Source of the DNA: Pachysolen tannophilus NRRL Y-2460
Taxonomy: Eukaryota
Length of the DNA: 64,000 nt
Reading direction: 5' to 3'
Assembly: GCA_001661245.1 (NCBI GenBank)
Contig: KV454011.1
Coordinates: 1,452,724 to 1,516,723, forward strand
The notes beneath the pieces were generated by a model. It saw nothing but the letters and a program-made list of their open reading frames with translations, searched no databases and was not told the origin of the DNA. The translations under genes were made by a program, and so were the position numbers. Below, one piece after another: positions 19,781-42,200 of this stretch (its first letter is position 1; each line of letters begins with the position of its first letter).

Positions 19781-20927
19781 TTAATTTTTTGGAGGAGTAA
19801 AAGTAATCTTTCTATGCTTGAATGGAGCCCATTTGAATTTCTTAACCCAAACGGATAACAAGTATAAACCAGAGAGGACAATAATAGCTTTAATACCCAA
19901 TCTTTTTCTTTCATCATGTTCTGGTTCAGCAGCCCAATTCAAAAAAGTAACAACATCTTTAGCCATTTGGGAAGTAGTTGCTTCAGTACCATCTTCATAT
20001 TCGACTAAACCATCAAATAATACTCTACCCATAGCAATTGAACCACCTGGGAAGTAAGGGTTATAGTTACCACCTGGAGGAAGAACAACACCTGCTGGGG
20101 CTTCATCTGGGTAACCGGTTAACAAGGAAAAGATATAATCACAACCACCATGTCTTGCCTTAACAATTAAAGATAAATCTGGAGGTAAAGCACCTTGGTT
20201 AGCAGCTCTTGCAGCCTGTTCATTAGCATAAGGACCTGGAATATGATCAGCCAATTTTCCTGGTCTCTTTCTTGGATTACCTTGATCATCTGGTTCATCA
20301 TCATATTCAAATTCTTCACACATGGTTTTAACTTCTGTAGTTGAATGAGAAACACCAACTAAAGTTCTCCAAGCAACTCTATCTAAAGAATGACATGCAG
20401 CACAAACTTCTCTATAGACATGGAAACCTCTTCTAATCGAAGCATGGTCAAAAGAATCAAACATCCCATTGTGTGGCCAAGTATATTCAGGTGGATGTAA
20501 ACCATGTTCTGCAGCAGTCATAGCTTCTGCAACTTGAGAATCTCTATACAAGACATATGAAGCAGTAAGTCCAGTAAGACCAACTGAACCAACAATAAAT
20601 CTTTTCAATAATGGAGACACTTCATTGGCTTGCTTTGTAGAAGTGGAAAATGCTCTCTGCAAAGAAAATAAATAAATAAAAAAAAAAGTTAGTATATATA
20701 ATATAAAATTTTTTTATTTTTATTTTATCACCATTATTATTTATTACACTATAGAATTCAAAGCGTCTCATCCATCTATTTTGAAATCATCAACACTTTT
20801 CCCACATAGTTAACCGAATCCTTTTATATTAAAATTAAAATAAATTCATAGGCGCTAATATCTATAGTTCTTATAAATTCTTATTTATACATACAGCACT
20901 CAATTTAGAACCAATTCTGCTAAACAT
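19781..20927 (-). CDS. CYT1: Cytochrome c1; exons 20927..20895 + 20656..19781, 302 aa
   Basis: Heme motif CAACH, MTAAEHGLH, PPDLSLIVKARHGG, YFPGGSIAM. Exon 1 MFSRIGSKLSA joins in phase 0. Confidence 0.97.
20657..20894 (-). other. Spliceosomal intron in CYT1 (238 nt)
   Basis: GTATGT donor at 20894, TACTAAC at 20694-20688, CAG acceptor at 20659-20657. Confidence 0.92.
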
Positions 20928-21719
20928 TTCTAATAAACTTCTTGAATGATATTAATATTTTTATTATTATTATTATTATTATTATTAACTACTATTTAAA
21001 AGCAAAAACCAAAAAACAATACTAATAATAAATCTTTTTAATATAAGTTCATTCAATTTTTGAACCTTCTTCTTTTTCTTTTTTTTTTTTTCAAGTTTTT
21101 TAAAAACTAATATTTTTTTTTAATTTATATTTTTACCAATAAAATATTAATACTTTTCTTATGGGTTTTAACCTATTTTTCTTTCTTCTTCCTCTCTATT
21201 TGTATATATTTTTTTTGAATTTTTTAACGCATTTTTCACCACACATAATAAATTTTTTTTTTCTTTGTAAAATCGAATCGACAAAATTTTATTGGTTAAA
21301 ACCAGAATGACAGAACATGTAAGAAAATGCCGGCGGCAGCACGGGTCATTTAAATCGGTAAGTGTCCCCATTCTGCTGTTTTAGTGTTTATGTGCACTAC
21401 TAGAAAAAAAATTTTTTTTTTTAAAAAAAAAAAAATAATAATTAAAGTAGTGCATTAATGATACAATATTCTAGATTCAAATAATTAGCTACTATACGTA
21501 CTACCTAGTTTAAATTTTTTTTGTTTGTGGTGTACATACACGACTAAAGTTTTTTTTTTACAACGGGGGCGGTATATGGGATTCTAGAAAAACTAAAAAA
21601 AAAAAAAAGTTTCCTGTTTTGGCACTTTGAGTTTTGCCAACACGACTTTGTGTGAGATGAAAAATTTCAAATTTTTCAACTGTTTATAAAAATAATAATA
21701 AAAATAGTAGTAAGAGAAG

Positions 21720-21725
21720 ACGCGT
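21720..21725. promoter_or_regulatory. MCB element (ACGCGT) upstream of CDC21
   Basis: Exact ACGCGT about 70 nt upstream of the ATG; thymidylate synthase is a classic MBF/G1-S target. Confidence 0.6.
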
Positions 21726-21793
21726 CTTTGTTATTTTTTTATTATTTTTTGTTATTTTTTTTTGTACTATAGTGATGTACTGATTGTTCAAGA

Positions 21794-22687
21794 ATGACAG
21801 GAATAAATGCTGAAGAACAAGGATACTTGGACCTTTGTCTGAAGATTGTGGAACATGGCGAGTTTAGACCAGATAGAACTGGTACTGGAACAAAATCTCT
21901 TTTTGCACCTCCTCAACTTCGATTTGATTTAAGAAATAATCAATTTCCCTTATTAACTACTAAAAAAGTTTTTTCTAAAGGAATTATTCATGAATTATTA
22001 TGGTTTGTTGAAGGTTCTACTGATGGTAATAAGTTATCGGAAAAGGGGGTAAGGATATGGGAAGGTAATGGTTCAAGAAAATATCTTGATTCTTTAGGTT
22101 TAACTGATCGTGAAGAAAATGATTTAGGTCCTGTTTATGGATTTCAATGGAGACATTTTGGTGCAGAATATAAAGATTGTCATAATGATTATCTGGGACA
22201 AGGTTATGATCAATTAGCAGAAATTATTCATAAATTGAAAACAAATCCTTATGATAGAAGAATTATATTATCAGCTTGGAATCCTCCAGATTTTAAAAAA
22301 ATGGCATTACCACCTTGTCATGTATTTTGTCAATTTTATGTTAGTTTCCCAAATGATAAAAATTTAAAACCTGAATTATCATGTTTATTATATCAAAGAT
22401 CTTGTGATATGGGACTTGGTGTTCCTTTTAATATTGCATCATATGCATTACTTACAAAAATGATTGCTCAAGTTGTAGGTATGGAATGTGGTGATTTAAT
22501 ACATACAATGGGTGATGCTCATGTTTATTTAGATCATATTGAAGCTTTACAACAACAATGTAATAGAATTCCAAGAAAATTCCCAAAATTGATCTTGAAA
22601 AGAAATGTAACCGATATTGATGATTTCAAATTTGAAGATTTTGAAATCGTTGATTATAATCCATACCCTACTATAAAGATGAAATAA
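21794..22687 (+). CDS. CDC21: Thymidylate synthase; as assembled it lacks the last three residues (MSV), which lie inverted at 23759..23748
   Basis: [55 protein letters not shown]. Ends IKMK* rather than IKMKMSV*. Confidence 0.97.
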
Positions 22688-23759
22688 TAATGAAGCAACG
22701 TCTACAACCAGCTCTATGTCAATATTACCAAAACATTCAAATTCAAAGCCTACTTTGAAATCATTACCAAACTCTGTAGATATAATGCCATCGACAACAG
22801 CGACAACGACGACAGCGACAACGTCAGCAGCAGCAGCAGCAGAAACAACAACGACAACGACAATGACAGCAGAGCCTCAGAGGCCAGTTCGCTCAAGATC
22901 AAGGATTAATTATAAATTACCGTCGTTAAGGAAAAAATTAAGAAGACCCGATGATAAACTTGTTGATGCTGTGTACTATGTTGAGCAAGACGATTTAAGA
23001 ATAGTTGATGATATTGAGGAACCAAGGAATAAAAGGAAAAGAAGAGATAGTGGAAGATTCATCAAGATTAGCAATGATTTCCTTTTAGATGGCGAGCCTC
23101 AGATTAAAGAAGAAGATGTTCATAATGGTGATATAAATAGTGATTGTAACAAGTTAAGTTTACCGGTATCACAAGTAGCTGTATCACAAGAAACTATATT
23201 ACAAGAAGCAAAATCACAGTTTCCGGATAAAACCGCCATTGATATACCTCAAAAGCAAACTAGAATTCCGTTAGGTGATATTTCAAACACAAGTAATAAT
23301 AATAGCAATATCAGTGGCAATATCAGTGGTAATTCCAGTCATCAAGATAGTAATGACTCTTCAATTGTGAAACAAGAAGATCTGAAGATAATACATAAGA
23401 AATCTAGTCTTTCAGAAGGAATGTCAGCTTTTGATTTCATGGAAGATGAACAAGAAGATTTATTAAAATGTAATAGGCGTAAAACCATTTTCAGTAATAA
23501 TAGCAATAGTATTAGTAGTAATGATGAAGGGAATAAAGTACCTATAACAATGAATGATGATGAGAGGAAAAAGGTTAATAAAAAGATGAGAAGCAGTAAT
23601 ATTCAAAAGAAGAAGAATAATAATAATAAGAGGAGGTATAGTAATGTATATTAGGGCAATAACAAAAAATTTTTTTTTTTTTAAAAAATAAGAAAACCTT
23701 TTAAAATTTAAAGAAATAAAATAATTATTTATTTTTTAGTTTTCTTTTCAAACACTCAT
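22685..23759. other. Inverted segment (1,075 bp) disrupting CDC21 and SGO1
   Basis: Re-inverting it restores both reading frames with no base gained or lost (see findings). Confidence 0.92.
22686..23654 (+). CDS. SGO1: Shugoshin C-terminal part (basic SGO motif), displaced by the inversion
   Basis: RPVRSRSRINYKLPSLRKKLRRPDDKLVDAV matches the shugoshin C-terminal motif. The frame stays open upstream of the 22716 ATG right to the breakpoint ([11 protein letters not shown]). Confidence 0.85.
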   Translation, partial: NNEATSTTSSMSILPKHSNSKPTLKSLPNSVDIMPSTTATTTTATTSAAAAAETTTTTTMTAEPQRPVRSRSRINYKLPSLRKKLRRPDDKLVDAVYYVEQDDLRIVDDIEEPRNKRKRRDSGRFIKISNDFLLDGEPQIKEEDVHNGDINSDCNKLSLPVSQVAVSQETILQEAKSQFPDKTAIDIPQKQTRIPLGDISNTSNNNSNISGNISGNSSHQDSNDSSIVKQEDLKIIHKKSSLSEGMSAFDFMEDEQEDLLKCNRRKTIFSNNSNSISSNDEGNKVPITMNDDERKKVNKKMRSSNIQKKKNNNNKRRYSNVY

Positions 23760-24466
23760 TTATGATCTTGAAATACTTTGAAATTTGATTTTTTTTCTTT
23801 CCTTCCAGGTTTATTAGATAATTGTATCAGAGTTTTCTGTTTTTCAAAATTTTCCTTCATCCTCAAAAAATCTTGTTCATCCTTATCAAATTCATCTTCA
23901 TCAAGTTCAGGTATCGAAAGTTCAGTAATTGTGTGTTGTTGACTACGATTTCCAATACCATTGCTCATATCTGCCTCTGATTTTATTGGTTCTTCTTGTT
24001 GCTGTTGTTGAACATCATCAAGAACTGGTTCCTCACCTTGCGGTATCACCATTGACTCTCGTCTCCTTGTTTTTCGCCTTGCATTTACCAATGGCAAATC
24101 AGGACTCACATTGTCATCATTAGAGGTCTTTATACTGATATTAGACAATGGCTCAATATTATTTTCAACTCTAATATCATCTATCTTGTCGAAAATCTCA
24201 CCAAATTTTAAAACACATTCCTTCTCTAATTCATCTAGCACTGAATTCAAATTATGAGTTCCAGTAACCTTGTCATTTTTCAATTTAATATAATCTTTAA
24301 ATAACTGATTAAGCTTGGTTTCCAAGAAGGCAATCTTCGATAACAATGAAGAATTCACCTTAGCTAAACTTCTATTTTGGCCAATATATTTTGACCTTAT
24401 AATTTCCAATTGCTGATGAGTTATATTATTCAACTTTGAAGCACCGCCTTGATTACTATTGAACAT
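23756..24466 (-). CDS. SGO1: Shugoshin N-terminal part (PP2A-binding coiled coil), truncated at the inversion breakpoint
   Basis: LEIIRSKYIGQNRSLAKVNSSLLSKIAFLETKLNQL is the shugoshin N-terminal coiled coil. First ATG at 24466. Confidence 0.85.
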   Translation of the reverse strand: MFNSNQGGASKLNNITHQQLEIIRSKYIGQNRSLAKVNSSLLSKIAFLETKLNQLFKDYIKLKNDKVTGTHNLNSVLDELEKECVLKFGEIFDKIDDIRVENNIEPLSNISIKTSNDDNVSPDLPLVNARRKTRRRESMVIPQGEEPVLDDVQQQQQEEPIKSEADMSNGIGNRSQQHTITELSIPELDEDEFDKDEQDFLRMKENFEKQKTLIQLSNKPGRKEKKSNFKVFQDHK

Positions 24467-24559
24467 CCTACTGTCGGTGACATATATATATATATATATA
24501 TATATAAATATATAATCTCTTTCTAGTGTCTTTGTATAAAATTGTATATATTTTATCTT

Positions 24560-24584
24560 GTAAACAAAAAAGGTAAACACGAAA
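24560..24584 (+). promoter_or_regulatory. Two forkhead sites (GTAAACA) and an SCB-like CACGAAA in the SGO1/DAD2 divergent promoter
   Basis: GTAAACA at 24560-24566 and 24573-24579; CACGAAA at 24578-24584. Confidence 0.5.
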
Positions 24585-24658
24585 AAAAAAAATAGACCAA
24601 AAGTTATTATCAAAATAATTAAAAAGAACTCAGTGATTTGGGGAGTTTTTGACGAGAT

Positions 24659-25156
24659 ATGGAAACAACAGCTGGTCTTAATAATGGTGGGAAATCACCT
24701 CATTTAGATGGAAAATCTCCTTCTGTTGGTCTGAGTTCAAATAGACTTCAGCAGAAAATTTTAGAAAAACAAAAAGAGTTGAAATCACTTCAAGTAATAA
24801 ACAATCTCATCAATAGATTATTGTTAAATTTTGAAAGACTTTCTGGAGATTTGTCGAAGTTATCGTCTGGGACGGATGCTATTGCGATGATAATGTCTAA
24901 CTGGAGTGAGATATTGAAGATTATCAAGTTAAGTAATTTGAATTTACTGTTACAAACACAGCGGCTGCTGGGAGAATCGTTGTCTAATACTACATTAGAT
25001 TTTGAAAAATTTGAAAATGATAAAGATCCAGATGATATGCCATTGCCTGAGACTTTAGTGAGACTTAGGTTGAATAAAGATGTGGAGAATAACAAGGAGG
25101 AAGAAGAGGAAGATACAGGATTGGATAAACATGAAGATGGGGTTATGGAAGATTAA
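24659..25156 (+). CDS. DAD2: DASH/Dam1 complex subunit Dad2
   Basis: LQQKILEKQKELKSL, GTDAIAMIMSNWSEILKII, PLPETLVRL. Sits next to NUP133 as in S. cerevisiae. Confidence 0.9.
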   Translation: METTAGLNNGGKSPHLDGKSPSVGLSSNRLQQKILEKQKELKSLQVINNLINRLLLNFERLSGDLSKLSSGTDAIAMIMSNWSEILKIIKLSNLNLLLQTQRLLGESLSNTTLDFEKFENDKDPDDMPLPETLVRLRLNKDVENNKEEEEEDTGLDKHEDGVMED

Positions 25157-25330
25157 AGTAAATTCAAGGAAATAAATAACACGCGTTTTGTTTCATGTTA
25201 GAGATGATTATAGTTTATAAACTGTTTAGTGGGGATTAGTTTTAATTAGTTATTTAATATTTCATGTTTTTATGGAAAAATTAAAATTATTTAAATTTCT
25301 AAAATTTATTAAATTTTATGCTCTAAAGTA

Positions 25331-28300
25331 TTAACCTTCGGTCATTTGTATGTCCTGATAATCAGAGATATCATTGTTATAAAAAGTAGATACTAATTTA
25401 ATGTAATCTCTTAACCCATGCCTGGTAAAATTCTCTTTTAAAATTTCAGTTTCAACTAGGATATCTTGATAGATTTTTTTTAACAAATCCGAATCATCAA
25501 GTTGTAACCATCGTTTCAATTCTGAAATGCTAACTTGAGATATATTTTCAAATTCTGAAAAAGTACTAAATACTATCGTATTTTCTGCACTTTCTCTTAA
25601 AATTTCTCTAACATTTTTAAATAAAACTGTGTTCTTGATTAATTCTAAATTAGAATCATCATTTTTCCCAGTATCATTAACTTGTTTAATTTCAGAATTT
25701 ATCTTTTTCCAATCATCAACAATAAATAATCTTCTAAAAAAAAGCTTGTATTCAAAATTATCTGAATCTGCTATTTTCAAAATATTAAAACCTTTAGCAA
25801 AATTTAACTCTAAAGAGGAATTCAATGTTAAATCTATCATTGTTAACAAATCAATCAATTCATATTTAGTTAAAATTTTGTTGGATAAAAACTTGGAAAC
25901 CTCTTTTTTGAAAAAATTCTCCTTAAAATTAGTTGCTGGGTTTTTTCCAAAATAATCATTCTTAGTCAAATTATTCATGACATTAGATTCCTGTTTATTA
26001 ATATCATTATCGTCAATCAAAAATTGTAATATGTTTTCATAGAGTTCTTTCTGATATGATATTATTTTCAAATCAAGACTGATTTCCTTTATTAAATTGT
26101 CCAAATATTGTTTATCCCTAAATTCTGTTCTGATGGACAATAAAGATAATTTAGCAGTACTTAACTGCAATGATCTATTAGTTATATATTTCTCTTCTTT
26201 GCAGTCAATTAATGTTAAACCTGCTTTTTCAAACTTTTCATCCAATAAATATTTAATCCAAGAAATATTAGCATACTGTCTATTCTCTTTGAAAAATTGA
26301 TCAAGATAAGTCGCATATTTGGAAAACCTGAAAAATAGTATTTTAAAATCTTTATTTTTAATCAAGTATTTATAAAAACAGGAAGCAAATCTGTATTTGA
26401 ATTTTTCAAAATATAGATTGAATGTATTTTCAATGAACAGTGTTTCTTCTTTTAAAAGATCCTTACTGTCCGGTTCAGTTTTAAATCTAATTCTGTTATG
26501 ATCCAAAATTTCAGTTATAGTGAGCATATCTTCGAAATTTTCAGCCATTCTTAAAATCAATTCCTTCCGATCAAATAGTATTAAAATATCCAACCATTTA
26601 GATTTAGTCTCCTCATATTCGGTAGTTAATTCTAATAATAATTGACTTTTAGTTTTTTCAGTTTTTGATAAATATGAAATAGAATCATTAAAAATGTAAA
26701 ACAAAAATTCAGCTATTCCTAATAAGTCTGAACCAATCTTAAACAAGAAATCATCTTTAAAAGATTTTTGTAGTAATAATTCATAGTAATTTTTGTAAAA
26801 TAATTTGAAAATTTCGTTCACTTTGAATAATAAAAGAGAGCTTTCTACTGAAAATGGTTTAACCAATAATGTTGTCTCATCATAATTCCATAAATCCAAA
26901 TTTTGAGCATTATACCTTAAAGTTTTCTCAATATCAATATAACCATTGACAAAAGTTAGGTTCAAAATGTTCAGAATTTTAGAAGCATCAATATTTTCAA
27001 CTCTTGGGCCAATATCTTCTAAAAAATTTGTAATAAACAGAGAAATTAATTCATCGATTTTGTCTAACTTGTTGAAATAGAAAAAACTGATCATATTTTT
27101 TTCCTTAACTTCTTCATCATTAACTATATCTTTAATTGATTTGATTAAAATTGTATTATATCTTCCAGGAAGGCTAGAATTAAAACTGGAGTAAAATTCT
27201 TTTGCGATCTTCAATTTTTCATATTTTTTCAAGATAAAAATTTTTAAATCATTTGAAATCAGGGAAATAAAATTTTCAACAATATAATTAATTAATTTTT
27301 CATAAGTCAAATTAATTTGAATTAAAAAATCATCCACAGATGGATAATTTTTATAAGAATCTTTGAAATTTTTGTTAAAAACCAAGTCATTAATCACGTT
27401 TAATATTGCATTTTCCACATCTTTTGTAAGATACTGATATTTTGGGAATTTGAAAAAAACTGGATTATCTAATGACCCATCAGTGTGATTATAAATAGCC
27501 TGCTCAATATATGATTTAATATACATCATTGGTCTTTGTTGTAATTTCAAATTATATTCATAATCGGACATTTCAGTAGGTTCTGTATCATTTTCATCTG
27601 GTATTCTTTCAATTTTCAAGATTCCAGAACGTGAAGTAACTAACATTAAACCATTCTCAATACTTTGGCTATGATCATAACCAACAACTGATACACCACG
27701 TTTCAAAGTTATAGCATCTTCCCATCTTGGTTTATAATTCAGATTACTCATATCAATTGGTTTAAGTGAAGTCATAACTTCAATCATTATGACTGAACTT
27801 TCTAAAACGATATAACAAAAATTGAAAGGTTTAGGTAAAACTAGTTTTGGTCTATCTAATTTAGTTGCAATATAACATGTTGATTTATATGTTGAATAAA
27901 GTGTGACACTCTTTGTTGATTCGTTAATTTCCACTGAGTATAATACTAAATATTTTTCATCATCATTATCATCATCATCTTCATCTTTGTTAAAGCTGAT
28001 CAATACCAAGTAAACATTTTTAAGTGGTAATGGAATCATATCTAATACTTTGAAAGAACGGAAAACATTAGGATAAAGTGGTTCTATAAATGAAGCCAAT
28101 GTTTCTTTTAAATTTTTTTGGAAAAGTTCAACAACTTTATTATTACTTTTAATTTCAAATAAATGAAAATTTCCATCTGAATCCTGTATAGCAAGTCTAT
28201 TCTCCTTTTTCTTAATAGATACTATTCTACTACTATTAATTATATAATCACTCAAGTCATAATCTAATTTCATACCTCCTTTGAAAATGGATCCGAACAA

Positions 28301-29071
28301 TTTCATCGACCCCCAGATACCACTCATGATATCAATTTTATTCAATTTTGGTTTACCAAGATTATCTCTTAAATTGATTAATGAAACTTTTTTAAAATTA
28401 GTCGTTATGAAAATACTATCCATATCTTTAACGTATTCACATTCCGTCACAAATTCATTTTTATTTAAATTCAAATTCATATCTAAAATTTTATAATTTA
28501 AAACTTTCAATGCAGGAGCATTATTAATAGATTCATAATATTTTAAACTACCAGTATAAGAATCAATTATTACCAACCCTGGATCATCAAGTTCTTCATC
28601 CGTGACATCATTATTATTATCAACCAATAAGGCAAACGGCTTCAACAGATATGGATTAAGCGCATACGAAAACGCCATTGCAATACCATGCTCTTTAAAA
28701 TGGTAAATATAAATCGAAGAATTATCAATTAAAATTGAATAATTCTTATATATTGAAGAACCATATTGTAAAATATGCAGCTCAATATCATTAGCTATCA
28801 CTGATGGCAAATCAGGTAATTTCAAAACCTTATACTTATCAGTCCGAGTCAACTCAACAAAAGAGTCACCGCTACTAGATGTTGGTGAAACTGCTGTTGT
28901 TGTTGTTGCCGTTGCCGTTGCCGCTGTTTCTGTTGCTGTTATGGTTTTAAACTCTTGCAGCTCATTATTCTTATTGTTATTCTTATTATTATTATTAGCA
29001 TCGGATTCATCATTACGATAAGCCAGCTTACTATTATTTTTCAATTTCCTCGCTGTAAATAAAGTAGACAT
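25331..29071 (-). CDS. NUP133: Nucleoporin Nup133
   Basis: LF..RK N-terminus, ELTRTDKYKVLKLP, PGLVIID..TG...YYESI, WED.I.L, AENFEDM.T..EI, ISWI. About 1246 aa; divergent from RPF2. Confidence 0.9.
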   Translation of the reverse strand: MSTLFTARKLKNNSKLAYRNDESDANNNNKNNNKNNELQEFKTITATETAATATATTTTAVSPTSSSGDSFVELTRTDKYKVLKLPDLPSVIANDIELHILQYGSSIYKNYSILIDNSSIYIYHFKEHGIAMAFSYALNPYLLKPFALLVDNNNDVTDEELDDPGLVIIDSYTGSLKYYESINNAPALKVLNYKILDMNLNLNKNEFVTECEYVKDMDSIFITTNFKKVSLINLRDNLGKPKLNKIDIMSGIWGSMKLFGSIFKGGMKLDYDLSDYIINSSRIVSIKKKENRLAIQDSDGNFHLFEIKSNNKVVELFQKNLKETLASFIEPLYPNVFRSFKVLDMIPLPLKNVYLVLISFNKDEDDDDNDDEKYLVLYSVEINESTKSVTLYSTYKSTCYIATKLDRPKLVLPKPFNFCYIVLESSVIMIEVMTSLKPIDMSNLNYKPRWEDAITLKRGVSVVGYDHSQSIENGLMLVTSRSGILKIERIPDENDTEPTEMSDYEYNLKLQQRPMMYIKSYIEQAIYNHTDGSLDNPVFFKFPKYQYLTKDVENAILNVINDLVFNKNFKDSYKNYPSVDDFLIQINLTYEKLINYIVENFISLISNDLKIFILKKYEKLKIAKEFYSSFNSSLPGRYNTILIKSIKDIVNDEEVKEKNMISFFYFNKLDKIDELISLFITNFLEDIGPRVENIDASKILNILNLTFVNGYIDIEKTLRYNAQNLDLWNYDETTLLVKPFSVESSLLLFKVNEIFKLFYKNYYELLLQKSFKDDFLFKIGSDLLGIAEFLFYIFNDSISYLSKTEKTKSQLLLELTTEYEETKSKWLDILILFDRKELILRMAENFEDMLTITEILDHNRIRFKTEPDSKDLLKEETLFIENTFNLYFEKFKYRFASCFYKYLIKNKDFKILFFRFSKYATYLDQFFKENRQYANISWIKYLLDEKFEKAGLTLIDCKEEKYITNRSLQLSTAKLSLLSIRTEFRDKQYLDNLIKEISLDLKIISYQKELYENILQFLIDDNDINKQESNVMNNLTKNDYFGKNPATNFKENFFKKEVSKFLSNKILTKYELIDLLTMIDLTLNSSLELNFAKGFNILKIADSDNFEYKLFFRRLFIVDDWKKINSEIKQVNDTGKNDDSNLELIKNTVLFKNVREILRESAENTIVFSTFSEFENISQVSISELKRWLQLDDSDLLKKIYQDILVETEILKENFTRHGLRDYIKLVSTFYNNDISDYQDIQMTEG

Positions 29072-39216: not shown

Positions 39217-42200
39217 TTAAATCCTCTTCCGTCTATGACCACTTTTTTTGACTGTCTGGTTTTCCAACGTTATCAAATTACTTCTTAATTGCTCACTTAA
39301 TATTTCGTCATTAATACCATCCAACTGATACCAAACATAATCTTGTTCGTACCTTACACCATTTTCAATCAAATTTTTCATCTTCTTTTGAACAGATTCT
39401 AAATCATCAGCACTATTTGCAATAATTGGTGAAAGATGATCAGGTATATTAATTAACTTCGCTGTCACTGAAGAATAAATTGGTACTGGTTTGACTAGTT
39501 CAGGATCTTCTTTTTTCTCCTCGGTGACTTCTTTTTCTCGAAGTTTTGGCTTTTGAAACCTTCTGTTCCTACCCTTTCTTCTTGATCTTTTCGTTACCTT
39601 ATTAGGAGGAGAGGAAGCCATCAGAGCTGAAGATGAAGTTGCTTGGGATTCAGGTGCTGAAGAATCCAACTTCTCACCATTGACTTCCTCCTCATTGTTG
39701 TGCAGTTCATCCTCCATTTTTATCCTGACTTCTTTCTCTTTTTCTTTCTCTTGTTTTTCTTTTAACCAGTTCTCGTATTTGTCAACATCATCCTGATTAT
39801 GAACCCACATAAATGATAATAGATAATCTCCATTATCTAATAGTTCAATAATACATTCTTTCGGTAAGAAATACCGAACTGAAGTATTTTCAACAAATTC
39901 AAATATTAAAGTTGCACCTTTACAATATTTTTCTTGTAATGGTGTTAACTTCTTACCTTCCTTCTTAACTGGCTTCGGTTTGGGTTTACTCTCGTCACTT
40001 TTTTTTGTCAGATTTTTCACTTGTGACTTAGATTCCTTTAGCTTTTCTTTTTCTAATCTTTTTTGCTCTTTAATTTTATCTTTCTCTTTTTGCTTTTCAA
40101 GTTGTTTCTTTAACTTTTCTTGTTGTTTTTTCTCTCTCTCCAGCAATTTTTTTTCTTGTTTCTGTTTCTTAGATTGCAGCCGATAAATTTTTGTTAGCTC
40201 TCCCGTTGGGTCCCCCTTAGCTTTAGCTTTATGGATATAACCTTGAAATTCAACTATTTGTTCATGGCTAGCTGATCCTGATGCTACAATTTTCATCAAG
40301 TCATTCAAGGCTGAATTTGCCCTAGCGAGAGCATTCAAATTTGAGATCATTATGTAATTCTCTAAAGTTTGCATGATTTTTTGAGGTTTTCTAGCCTCTT
40401 TTTTTTCTGTTTCAAGTTTATTGGCAGTCGTCTCCTCTGACTTCTTTTCGCCTTTATTATCTCCCTTATCATCTTCTCCTGGGGTCTTGGCTTTTTCCTT
40501 TGTTTCGACTTTATCTGCAGTCTTGTCTCCATCTTTACCAGATTCTTTAGTAGGTTCTTTACTTTCTATCTCCGGTGTCTTCACTTTTGTTTCTGATTCT
40601 ATTTTATGTGTAGTCTTTTCACCATCTTTATTGCTAGGTTCTTTGGTTTGCAGTTCCGGTGTCTTGACTTTTGCTTCTGATTCTATTTTATCTGTAGTCT
40701 TTTCACCATCTTTATTGCTAGGTTCTTTGGTTTGCAGTTCCGGTGTCTTGACTTTTGCTTCTGATTCTATTTTATCTGTAGTCTTTTCACCATCTTTATT
40801 GCTAGGTTCTTTGGTTTGCAGTTCCGTGTCTTGACTTTTGCTTCTAGATTCTATTTTATCTGTAGTCTTTTCACCATCTTTATTGCTAGGTTCTTTGGTT
40901 TGCAGTTCCGGTGTCTTGACTTTTGCTTCTGATTCTATTTTATCTTCAATCTCTTCGCCATCTTTGCTGGGTTCTTTACTTTCTACTTCTGGCGTCTTAG
41001 TAGATTCATCCTCGGTCTTCTCCTTGGATTCATTTTGTTCCTTACTATCTTCCTTGTTTTCTTCTTTCAGTACTTCGGTTTTTTTGTCTACTCCTTCTGT
41101 TTCTACCACTTTCTCACTTTTATCTTCTTCTACATCCAGGGTCTTTGCTTTCTTTTTCCGGACATTGTTTCACTATCTGGGTTCCTGATTTTGTTGCCCA
41201 TGCTGTGTTTTGCTTTCATCTTGCAGTACATTATTTGAAGNNNNNNNNNNNNNNNNNNNNNNNNNNNNNNNNNNNNNNNNNNNNNNNNNNNNNNNNNNNN
41301 NNNNNNNNNNNNNNNNNNNNNNNNNNNNNNNNNNNNNNNNNNNNNNNNNNNNNNNNNNNNNNNNNNNNNNNNNNNNNNNNNNNNNNNNNNNNNNNNNNNN
41401 TGATTCTATTTTATCTGTAGTCTTTTCACCATCTTTATTGCTAGGTTCTTTGGTTTGCAGTTCCGGTGTCTTGACTTTTGCTTCTGATTCTATTTTATCT
41501 GTAGTCTTTTCACCATCTTTATTGCTAGGTTCTTTGGTTTGCAGTTCCGGTGTCTTGACTTTTGCTTCTGATTCTATTTTATCTGTAGTCTTTTCACCAT
41601 CTTTATTGCTAGGTTCTTTGGTTTGCAGTTCCGGTGTCTTGACTTTTGCTTCTGATTCTATTTTATCTTCAATCTCTTCGCCATCTTTGCTGGGTTCTTT
41701 ACTTTCTACTTCTGGCGTCTTAGTAGATTCATCCTCGGTCTTCTCCTTGGATTCATTTTGTTCCTTACTATCTTCCTTGTTTTCTTCTTTCAGTACTTCG
41801 GTTTTTTTGTCTACTCCTTCTGTTTCTACCACTTTCTCACTTTTATCTTCTTCTACATCCAGGGTCTTTGCTTCTTTTCCGGACATTGTTTCACTATCTG
41901 GTTCCTGATTTTGTTGCCCATGCTGTGTTTTGCTTTCATCTTGCAGTACATTATTTGAAGTTTCCTGTTTCTGTTCATCCAGCATTACTTCAGGACTCTT
42001 GGATTTAATAACGACTTCATTACCATTTTCTCCAGCATCCTTTTGCTCTTTTTGTACATTATCTGTCGAGACTTCTTCCCTTTTAAGACTTGTGTCGCTA
42101 TTCAGTTGTTTCTCAAGATTGTTATCCTTCATGAGAAATAATCTGAGATCAAAGAAATGAGGACCTAATTGGATTACAGGTTCACATAATCTAATCAATT

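What the first reader, a model, noticed from the sequence alone, without database searches (positions are those of the whole stretch)
22679..23764. Base-exact 1,075-bp inversion that removes the C-terminus of thymidylate synthase and splits shugoshin
Seen in sequence: CDC21 ends ATG AAA | TAA (IKMK*). On the minus strand at 23759..23748 is ATG AGT GTT TGA (MSV*), the missing tail. The Sgo1 N-half (minus, from 24466) ends GAT CAT AA|A TGA, and the Sgo1 C-half (plus) is open right up to 22685 (T AAT AAT GAA GCA). Reversing 22685..23759 gives CDC21 ...IKMK-MSV* (300 aa) and SGO1 ...QDH-N-NNEATS... (558 aa, coiled coil plus SGO motif). The two genes then converge across a 93-bp AT-rich spacer, with no base gained or lost. 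The junctions share only AA/TT (22683-84 and 23760-61); there are no long inverted repeats. Established: yeast TS ends in MSV, the TS C-terminal residue matters for catalysis, and SGO1 (YOR073W) and CDC21 (YOR074C) are convergent neighbours in S. cerevisiae. Inference: CDC21 is normally essential, so a mis-oriented or edited sequence, or a rare/heterozygous rearrangement, is most likely. If both orientations exist in cells, it would be an undescribed flip switch coupling dTMP synthesis to centromeric cohesion protection.
Basis: partly seen in the sequence, partly recalled or inferred. Interest (0 to 1): 0.93.

Follow-up and report, generated by a model that had tools for sequence, protein, structure and literature searches.

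The report
Mis-oriented 1,075-bp segment: assembly artefact
The inversion that seems to truncate thymidylate synthase and split shugoshin is in the assembled record, but contigs built from raw reads all show the other orientation with both genes whole, so it is an assembly error.

Summary
In the window, thymidylate synthase (TS, CDC21-like) stops after IKMK at 297 aa. Its last codons, MSV*, lie on the minus strand at 23759..23748. A shugoshin gene is split into an N-half (minus strand) and a C-half (plus strand). Reversing 22685..23759 gives a 300-aa TS ending MSV and a 558-aa shugoshin, 93 bp apart. All 119 other TS homologues listed run exactly three residues further and end M-[S/A]-[V/I]. 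The arrangement is in the deposited assembly, because the protein collection holds the same 297-aa TS and a 263-aa shugoshin fragment on a 2.51-Mb contig. Read-built contigs of 4 of 4 runs laid (2 samples, 2 studies) join 22684 to 23759 and 22685 to 23760 on opposite strands, which is the restored orientation. They differ from the window at no base and account for all the depth at both junctions. The window also differs from them in homopolymer lengths. Verdict: a local mis-orientation in a draft assembly (about 0.9), not a real inversion or a flip switch. Contigs cannot exclude a rare minor form. Interest is low.

The parts
21794..22684 (+). Thymidylate synthase (CDC21/TMP1-like) codons 1-297. 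In the window a TAA at 22685-22687 follows directly and cuts off the last three residues.
   Evidence: ORF. Pfam PF00303 at 369.1 bits, profile positions 2-263 of 266. Identical apart from CTG read as Ala to stored protein P0002, 297 aa.
23748..23759 (-). The displaced end of the TS gene: codons 298-300 (MSV) plus a TGA stop.
   Evidence: Sequence. The restored TS is 300 aa ending KMKMSV*. All 119 other homologues end MSV, MAV or MSI.
22685..23759 (.). The 1,075-bp segment that lies in the wrong orientation in the window compared with read-built contigs.
   Evidence: tables 5 and 8: opposite-strand joints 22684|23759 and 22685|23760 in X2, X4 and X5, and 22682|23761 and 22683|23762 in X1. These are the same event, shifted within the 2 shared letters.
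23760..24466 (-). Shugoshin (SGO1-like) codons 1-235 plus the first two bases of codon 236. This part holds the N-terminal coiled coil.
   Evidence: ORF. Pfam Shugoshin_N PF07558 at 30.3 bits against a cutoff of 30.
22685..23654 (+). Shugoshin from the third base of codon 236 to the stop (residues 236-558 of the restored protein), with the basic SGO motif. It lies on the plus strand only because of the mis-orientation.
   Evidence: Frame. Pfam Shugoshin_C PF07557 at 20.8 bits, E 3.4e-4, cutoff 23.3, residues 66-87. The restored length is 558 aa. P0001 is a stored 263-aa gene model of part of it.
23655..23747 (.). AT-rich spacer between the two convergent stop codons, 93 bp in the window. The read-built contigs of X1, X2 and X4 carry 4 more letters within the inverted segment. 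One is a T after 23731. I place the other three in the T/A runs at about 23657-23698.
   Evidence: for the 93-bp spacer. table 4 for 23731 +T in 4 of 4 runs, and table 8 for 4 gaps in the middle piece in X1, X2 and X4. The placement of the other three is inferred from X5, whose pieces have 0 gaps over 22685-23656 and 1 gap over 23699-23759.
22683..22684 (.). AA, the 2-bp overlap shared with TT at 23760-23761. It makes the breakpoints ambiguous by 2 bases.
   Evidence: table 5, column 'both' = 2; three equivalent breakpoint pairs.

Best explanation
The 1,075-bp segment 22685..23759 is mis-oriented in the deposited draft assembly from which the window was cut. In the organism's DNA, as read in four sequencing runs, the segment lies the other way round. 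TS is then an ordinary 300-aa enzyme ending MSV. Shugoshin is one 558-aa protein with an N-terminal coiled coil and a C-terminal SGO motif. The two genes converge across an AT-rich spacer of about 93-97 bp. Nothing 'works' here: the truncated TS and the split shugoshin are products of an assembly or finishing error. Shown: the orientation in read-built contigs, the intact frames after reversal, and the presence of the broken models in the public protein collection. Inferred: that the error arose during assembly, scaffolding or finishing. The step that caused it cannot be identified here.
For: (1). In X1 and X2 a single 3,105-bp contig, and in X4 a 2,926-bp contig, runs through both junctions with 22685..23759 on the strand opposite to its flanks. 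In X5, from a second sample and study, one contig joins 21452-22684 to 23759-23699 and another joins 22685-23656 to 23760-24471. That makes 4 of 4 runs in the restored orientation. (2), tables 2 and 8, with my arithmetic. The depth in the bins holding the junctions equals the depth of these contigs alone: 169, 63.8 and 165.3 in X1, X2 and X4. In X5, 120.1 and 118 equal the length-weighted mix of its two contigs. No further contig therefore lies on either junction. (3), table 3. There is no base difference over 4.5 kb in any run, so this is the same strain or a nearly identical one. (4) Reversal restores two conserved genes exactly. All 119 other TS homologues carry the three residues that the window's TS lacks, and the Pfam TS profile lacks only its last 3 positions. 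(5) The window's record shows draft-quality errors. Its homopolymer lengths differ from all 4 runs after 21252, 23731 and 24581 (table 4), and a run of 160 N lies at 41241-41400. (6) The observed word share of 0.95 in all five holders fits the roughly 0.944 expected if they hold the restored form plus these indels. (7) The TS C-terminal region acts as a lid over the ligand site in the closed conformation (PMC5148040, passages read), so a strain living on a TS that lacks it is unlikely.
Against: All four runs are Logan contigs, not raw reads. Contigs drop rare variants, so a minor fraction of cells with the window's orientation is not excluded (tool caveat). One search did not show 59 further pieces and 32 further loose ends. 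I rely on the depth bookkeeping to say that none of them bridges a junction. X1, X2 and X4 are one sample, so the independent support amounts to two samples and two studies, and one of these may be the assembly's own source. A base-exact inversion with only 2 bp of overlap, no N gap and no repeat at the ends is not what a typical scaffolder orientation error looks like. It looks more like an end-joining event in real DNA. I could not identify the assembly step that produced it.
Confidence: 0.9

Rival explanations
1. A real inversion that arose by end joining at a 2-bp overlap in the particular clone or DNA preparation used for the reference assembly. It would be absent from the cultures behind the four runs laid.
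For: The junctions are base-exact with 2 bp of shared letters and have no flanking repeats, as expected of non-homologous or microhomology-mediated joining. The arrangement is in the deposited record.
Against: It would remove the near-invariant TS C-terminus, present in all 119 other homologues, from an enzyme that I recall to be essential in yeast. It would also break shugoshin. Three of the runs share one sample that may be the assembly's own source, and they show the restored form at full depth. There is no base difference between the window and the runs. No second TS copy could be sought, because no whole genome is held.
Confidence: 0.05
2. The segment was reversed after deposition, as an edit of the window and not of the record.
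Against: The protein collection already holds a 297-aa TS ending KMK (P0002) and a 263-aa fragment of the shugoshin C-half (P0001). Both have precomputed data, sit on a 2,514,465-bp contig, and were translated with CTG as Ala. Gene models were therefore called on a public record that already had this arrangement.
Confidence: 0.03
3. A reversible DNA flip switch. Both orientations would coexist in cells, toggling TS and shugoshin between intact and broken states.
For: Only that the flip is exact and involves two cell-cycle genes. Contigs cannot exclude a rare second form (caveat).
Against: There are no inverted repeats at the ends for a recombinase to act on. None of the four adjacent genes scanned is a recombinase: they are cytochrome c1, Dad2, Nup133-like and TS itself. 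In 3 of 4 runs the contigs pass both junctions without a branch, and in the fourth they break elsewhere, in the T/A run. The broken state would lack a working TS.
Confidence: 0.02

Closest known systems
Local inversion (mis-orientation) errors in draft genome assemblies
   Same: A short internal segment is reversed relative to the reads. Independent read-built contigs disagree with the record. The record shows other draft-type errors, namely homopolymer lengths and an N gap.
   Different: The step that produced the error is not identified.
The convergent SGO1 (YOR073W) and CDC21 (YOR074C) gene pair of S. cerevisiae
   Same: After reversal the two genes converge tail to tail across a short spacer. 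Cytochrome c1 lies nearby.
   Different: The organism reads CTG as Ala according to its stored gene products, so it is a distant budding yeast. Its nearest TS in the collection is only 78% identical.
Invertible DNA switches (Hin/Gin invertases, fim switch, FLP/FRT of the 2-micron plasmid; recalled)
   Same: A DNA segment in one of two orientations that changes which proteins can be made.
   Different: The defining inverted repeats are absent. No recombinase is among the four adjacent genes scanned. Only one orientation is found in the runs.

Membership tests
Thymidylate synthase (Pfam PF00303) | Full-length match to the family profile | tested here: met
   369.1 bits against a cutoff of 24.3, profile positions 2-263 of 266.
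Thymidylate synthase (Pfam PF00303) | Conserved C-terminal end M-[S/A]-[V/I], the lid over the ligand-binding site | tested here: not met
   Not met in the window as given, which ends KMK, against all 119 other homologues. Met once 22685..23759 is reversed, which is the orientation of the read-built contigs. The lid role is taken from PMC5148040, passages read.
Shugoshin | N-terminal coiled coil (Pfam PF07558) | tested here: met
   30.3 bits against a cutoff of 30, residues 23-56 of the N-half. It passes only narrowly.
Shugoshin | C-terminal basic SGO motif (Pfam PF07557) | tested here: inconclusive
   20.8 bits against a cutoff of 23.3, E 3.4e-4, covering profile positions 2-24 of 24. It is below the curated cutoff but matches almost the whole profile.
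Shugoshin | Both regions on one polypeptide | tested here: not met
   Not met in the window, where the halves lie on opposite strands. Met in the orientation of the read-built contigs, which gives one 558-aa frame.
Invertible DNA switch | Inverted repeats at the two ends of the segment | tested here: not met
   None of the 25 longest pairs shown, out of 270 found, has its arms at the junctions. Only 2 bp are shared.
Invertible DNA switch | Both orientations present in the DNA of a culture | tested here: not met
   In 4 of 4 runs only the restored orientation is seen, and the depth at the junctions is fully accounted for. These are contigs only, so a rare form is not excluded.
Invertible DNA switch | A recombinase gene nearby | tested here: inconclusive
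   The four adjacent genes scanned are cytochrome c1, TS, Dad2 and Nup133-like. The rest of the 64-kb window was not scanned.
Assembly mis-orientation | Reads or independent assemblies contradict the record at the breakpoints | tested here: met
   Opposite-strand joints at 22684|23759 and 22685|23760 in 4 of 4 runs from 2 studies.

The most novel reading that the evidence does not exclude
The window's orientation is a true allele that exists at low frequency, or in one clone, alongside the intact form. It would be an exact, microhomology-bounded inversion that disables TS and shugoshin together, perhaps reversibly.
Probability: 0.03. Interest if true: 0.6.

Novelty: not a real feature. Interest (0 to 1): 0.06.

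Why it matters
There is no biological novelty. The value is practical. The public record carries a truncated TS model (297 aa) and fragmentary shugoshin models, including a 263-aa one, that misdescribe two intact conserved genes. Anyone using that proteome would score shugoshin as missing or split and TS as aberrant. The case also gives the scan a template: when an exact inversion breaks two conserved genes in a draft assembly, check it against read-built contigs before proposing any mechanism.

Tried and rejected
- **Whole-genome search.** It would have looked for a second TS copy or other inversions, but no genome is held for this window.
- **RNA evidence.** No RNA holder was listed by the look-up of sequencing runs, so nothing can be said about transcripts.
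- **Shugoshin relatives.** The search with the C-half at 177-564 aa returned only the window's own 263-aa model. No relative was found, so there is no comparison of full-length shugoshins. I did not run the 'longer' search with the N-half.
- **Earlier notes of the scan.** None exist for this genome or for similar wording.
- **Literature on the TS C-terminus.** The first search returned unrelated papers. The second gave structural papers, of which I read passages in two. The classic C-terminal deletion study (Perry et al. 1993) I saw only as an entry in a reference list. Its kinetic results are recalled, not read.
- **tRNA scan.** It found one tRNA-Ile and nothing that bears on the reading of CUG.
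- **Flip switch.** Considered and rejected; see the rival explanations.
- **Heterozygous diploid with one inverted allele.** Rejected, because contigs run through both junctions without branching in 3 runs, at about the depth of the neighbouring contig.

Full report
**Observation.**
- A thymidylate synthase (TS) ORF runs 21794..22687 on the plus strand. It ends IKMK and then TAA, at 297 aa.
- Twelve bases on the minus strand at 23759..23748 read ATG AGT GTT TGA, which is MSV*.
- A 236-aa minus-strand ORF, 24466..23756, ends QDHK*.
- A plus-strand frame is open from 22683 to the stop at 23652-23654.

Pfam identifies these pieces:
- TS matches PF00303 at 369 bits, covering profile positions 2-263 of 266, so exactly the last three positions are missing.
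- The N-half matches Shugoshin_N at 30.3 bits against a cutoff of 30.
- The C-half matches Shugoshin_C at 20.8 bits, E 3.4e-4. This is under the cutoff of 23.3 but covers almost the whole 24-position profile.

A script that reversed 22685..23759 gave a 300-aa TS ending KMKMSV*, a 558-aa shugoshin that is continuous across the joint, and 93 bp between the two stops. Only 6 of 625 breakpoint pairs in a 25 x 25 grid gave a TS ending MSV together with a long shugoshin frame. Three of them are the same event, shifted within a 2-bp AA/TT overlap. No inverted repeat sits at the ends.

**Is the truncated TS plausible?** Among the 120 best TS homologues listed, out of 3,478 with E <= 1e-100, the only one ending KMK is the window's own protein. 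In a MAFFT alignment, all 119 others continue for exactly three residues past that point: MSV 92, MAV 26, MSI 1. Structural work describes the C-terminal region as a lid over the ligand-binding site in the closed conformation (PMC5148040, passages read). That C-terminal deletions cripple the enzyme, and that CDC21 is essential in yeast, I recall and did not read here.

**Where does the arrangement come from?** The protein collection holds two proteins marked as the window's own. P0002 is a 297-aa TS, and P0001 is a 263-aa fragment of the shugoshin C-half. Both sit on a 2,514,465-bp contig.

P0002 differs from my standard-code translation only at two CTG codons, which it reads as Ala. That is NCBI table 26, the code of the CUG-Ala clade of budding yeasts. 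At those two positions the homologues carry Leu in 0 of 119 and 1 of 119 cases, which fits CTG not being Leu. Gene models were therefore called on a public record that already had the inversion, so it is not an edit of the window. The nearest other TS is 78% identical, so no close relative is available for comparison.

**The decisive test.** Five runs from two studies hold 0.95 of the sampled words of 21700-24600. I laid four of them on 21000-25500: X1, X2 and X4 from one sample, and X5 from a second sample and study. All four are contigs that Logan built from each run's raw reads.
- In X1 and X2 a single 3,105-bp contig, and in X4 a 2,926-bp contig, covers the region up to 24471, starting at 21452 in X1 and X2 and at 21621 in X4. 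In each, the piece 22685..23759 lies on the strand opposite to its flanks.
- In X5 one contig joins 21452-22684 to 23759-23699, and another joins 22685-23656 to 23760-24471.
- The joints table lists only 'opposite strands' joints, at 22684|23759 and 22685|23760, with 2 letters fitting either side. In X1 they appear shifted by those 2 letters.
- The depth in the bins that hold the junctions equals the depth of these contigs alone. It is 169, 63.8 and 165.3 in X1, X2 and X4. In X5, 120.1 and 118 match the length-weighted mix of its two contigs (my arithmetic). No other contig therefore lies on either junction.
- No base differs over the 4.5 kb in any run.

So 4 of 4 runs have the restored orientation.

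**Further signs of a draft record.** All four runs carry an extra T after 21252 and after 23731, and an extra A after 24581 (table 4). The middle piece has 4 gaps in X1, X2 and X4. From X5's pieces I infer that the other three lie in the T/A runs at about 23657-23698. All four are in the intergenic spacer, which would then be about 97 bp. The window also has 160 N at 41241-41400. The 0.95 word share agrees with the roughly 0.944 expected if the runs hold the restored form plus these indels.

**Interpretation.** The most likely account, at about 0.9, is that a 1,075-bp segment was mis-oriented during assembly or finishing of the record. In the organism, TS and shugoshin are intact convergent neighbours. 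The surrounding genes are ordinary: cytochrome c1 at 19781..20521, Dad2 at 24659..25156, and a Nup133-like nucleoporin at 25331..29071.

Two things remain odd:
- The cleanness of the error is unexplained. There is no N gap, no repeat, and only 2 bp of overlap. I could not identify the step that produced it.
- For that reason I leave about 0.05 for a real end-joining inversion in the particular clone behind the assembly, 0.03 for a later edit, and 0.02 for a flip switch.

**Limits.**
- Contigs show presence, not absence, so a rare second orientation is not excluded.
- Three of the four runs share a sample that may be the assembly's own source.
- One search did not show 59 further pieces.
- No RNA run was listed, and no whole genome is held.
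- Earlier notes of the scan held nothing on this genome.

**Verdict.** The feature is not real biology but an assembly artefact. Interest is low, apart from the correction it implies for the record's TS and shugoshin gene models.

Noticed in passing
window 21794..22687 (codons 16 and 134) and stored proteins P0001, P0002: The stored gene products read CTG as Ala (NCBI table 26), which marks the source as a budding yeast of the CUG-Ala clade. At the two CTG positions of TS the homologues have Leu in 0 of 119 and 1 of 119 cases.
   Followed up: partly
window 21252, 23731, 24581, and about 23657-23698: The window's homopolymer runs are one letter shorter than in the read-built contigs of all 4 runs laid. 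This suggests homopolymer-length errors throughout the record.
   Followed up: partly
window 41241..41400: A run of 160 N, either a scaffold gap or a withheld stretch.
   Followed up: no
window 24472..24522: A long (AT)n microsatellite lies directly upstream of the shugoshin start codon. The read-built contigs of all four runs break there.
   Followed up: no
window 24659..25156 and 25331..29071: Dad2 (DASH complex) and a Nup133-like nucleoporin lie next to each other, beside shugoshin. I recall DAD2 and NUP133 as neighbours in S. cerevisiae too.
   Followed up: no
window 22790..22870: A Thr/Ala-rich low-complexity run (ACN/GCN codon repeats) lies inside the shugoshin C-half. Short pieces of other contigs match it at 22844-22868.
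   Followed up: no
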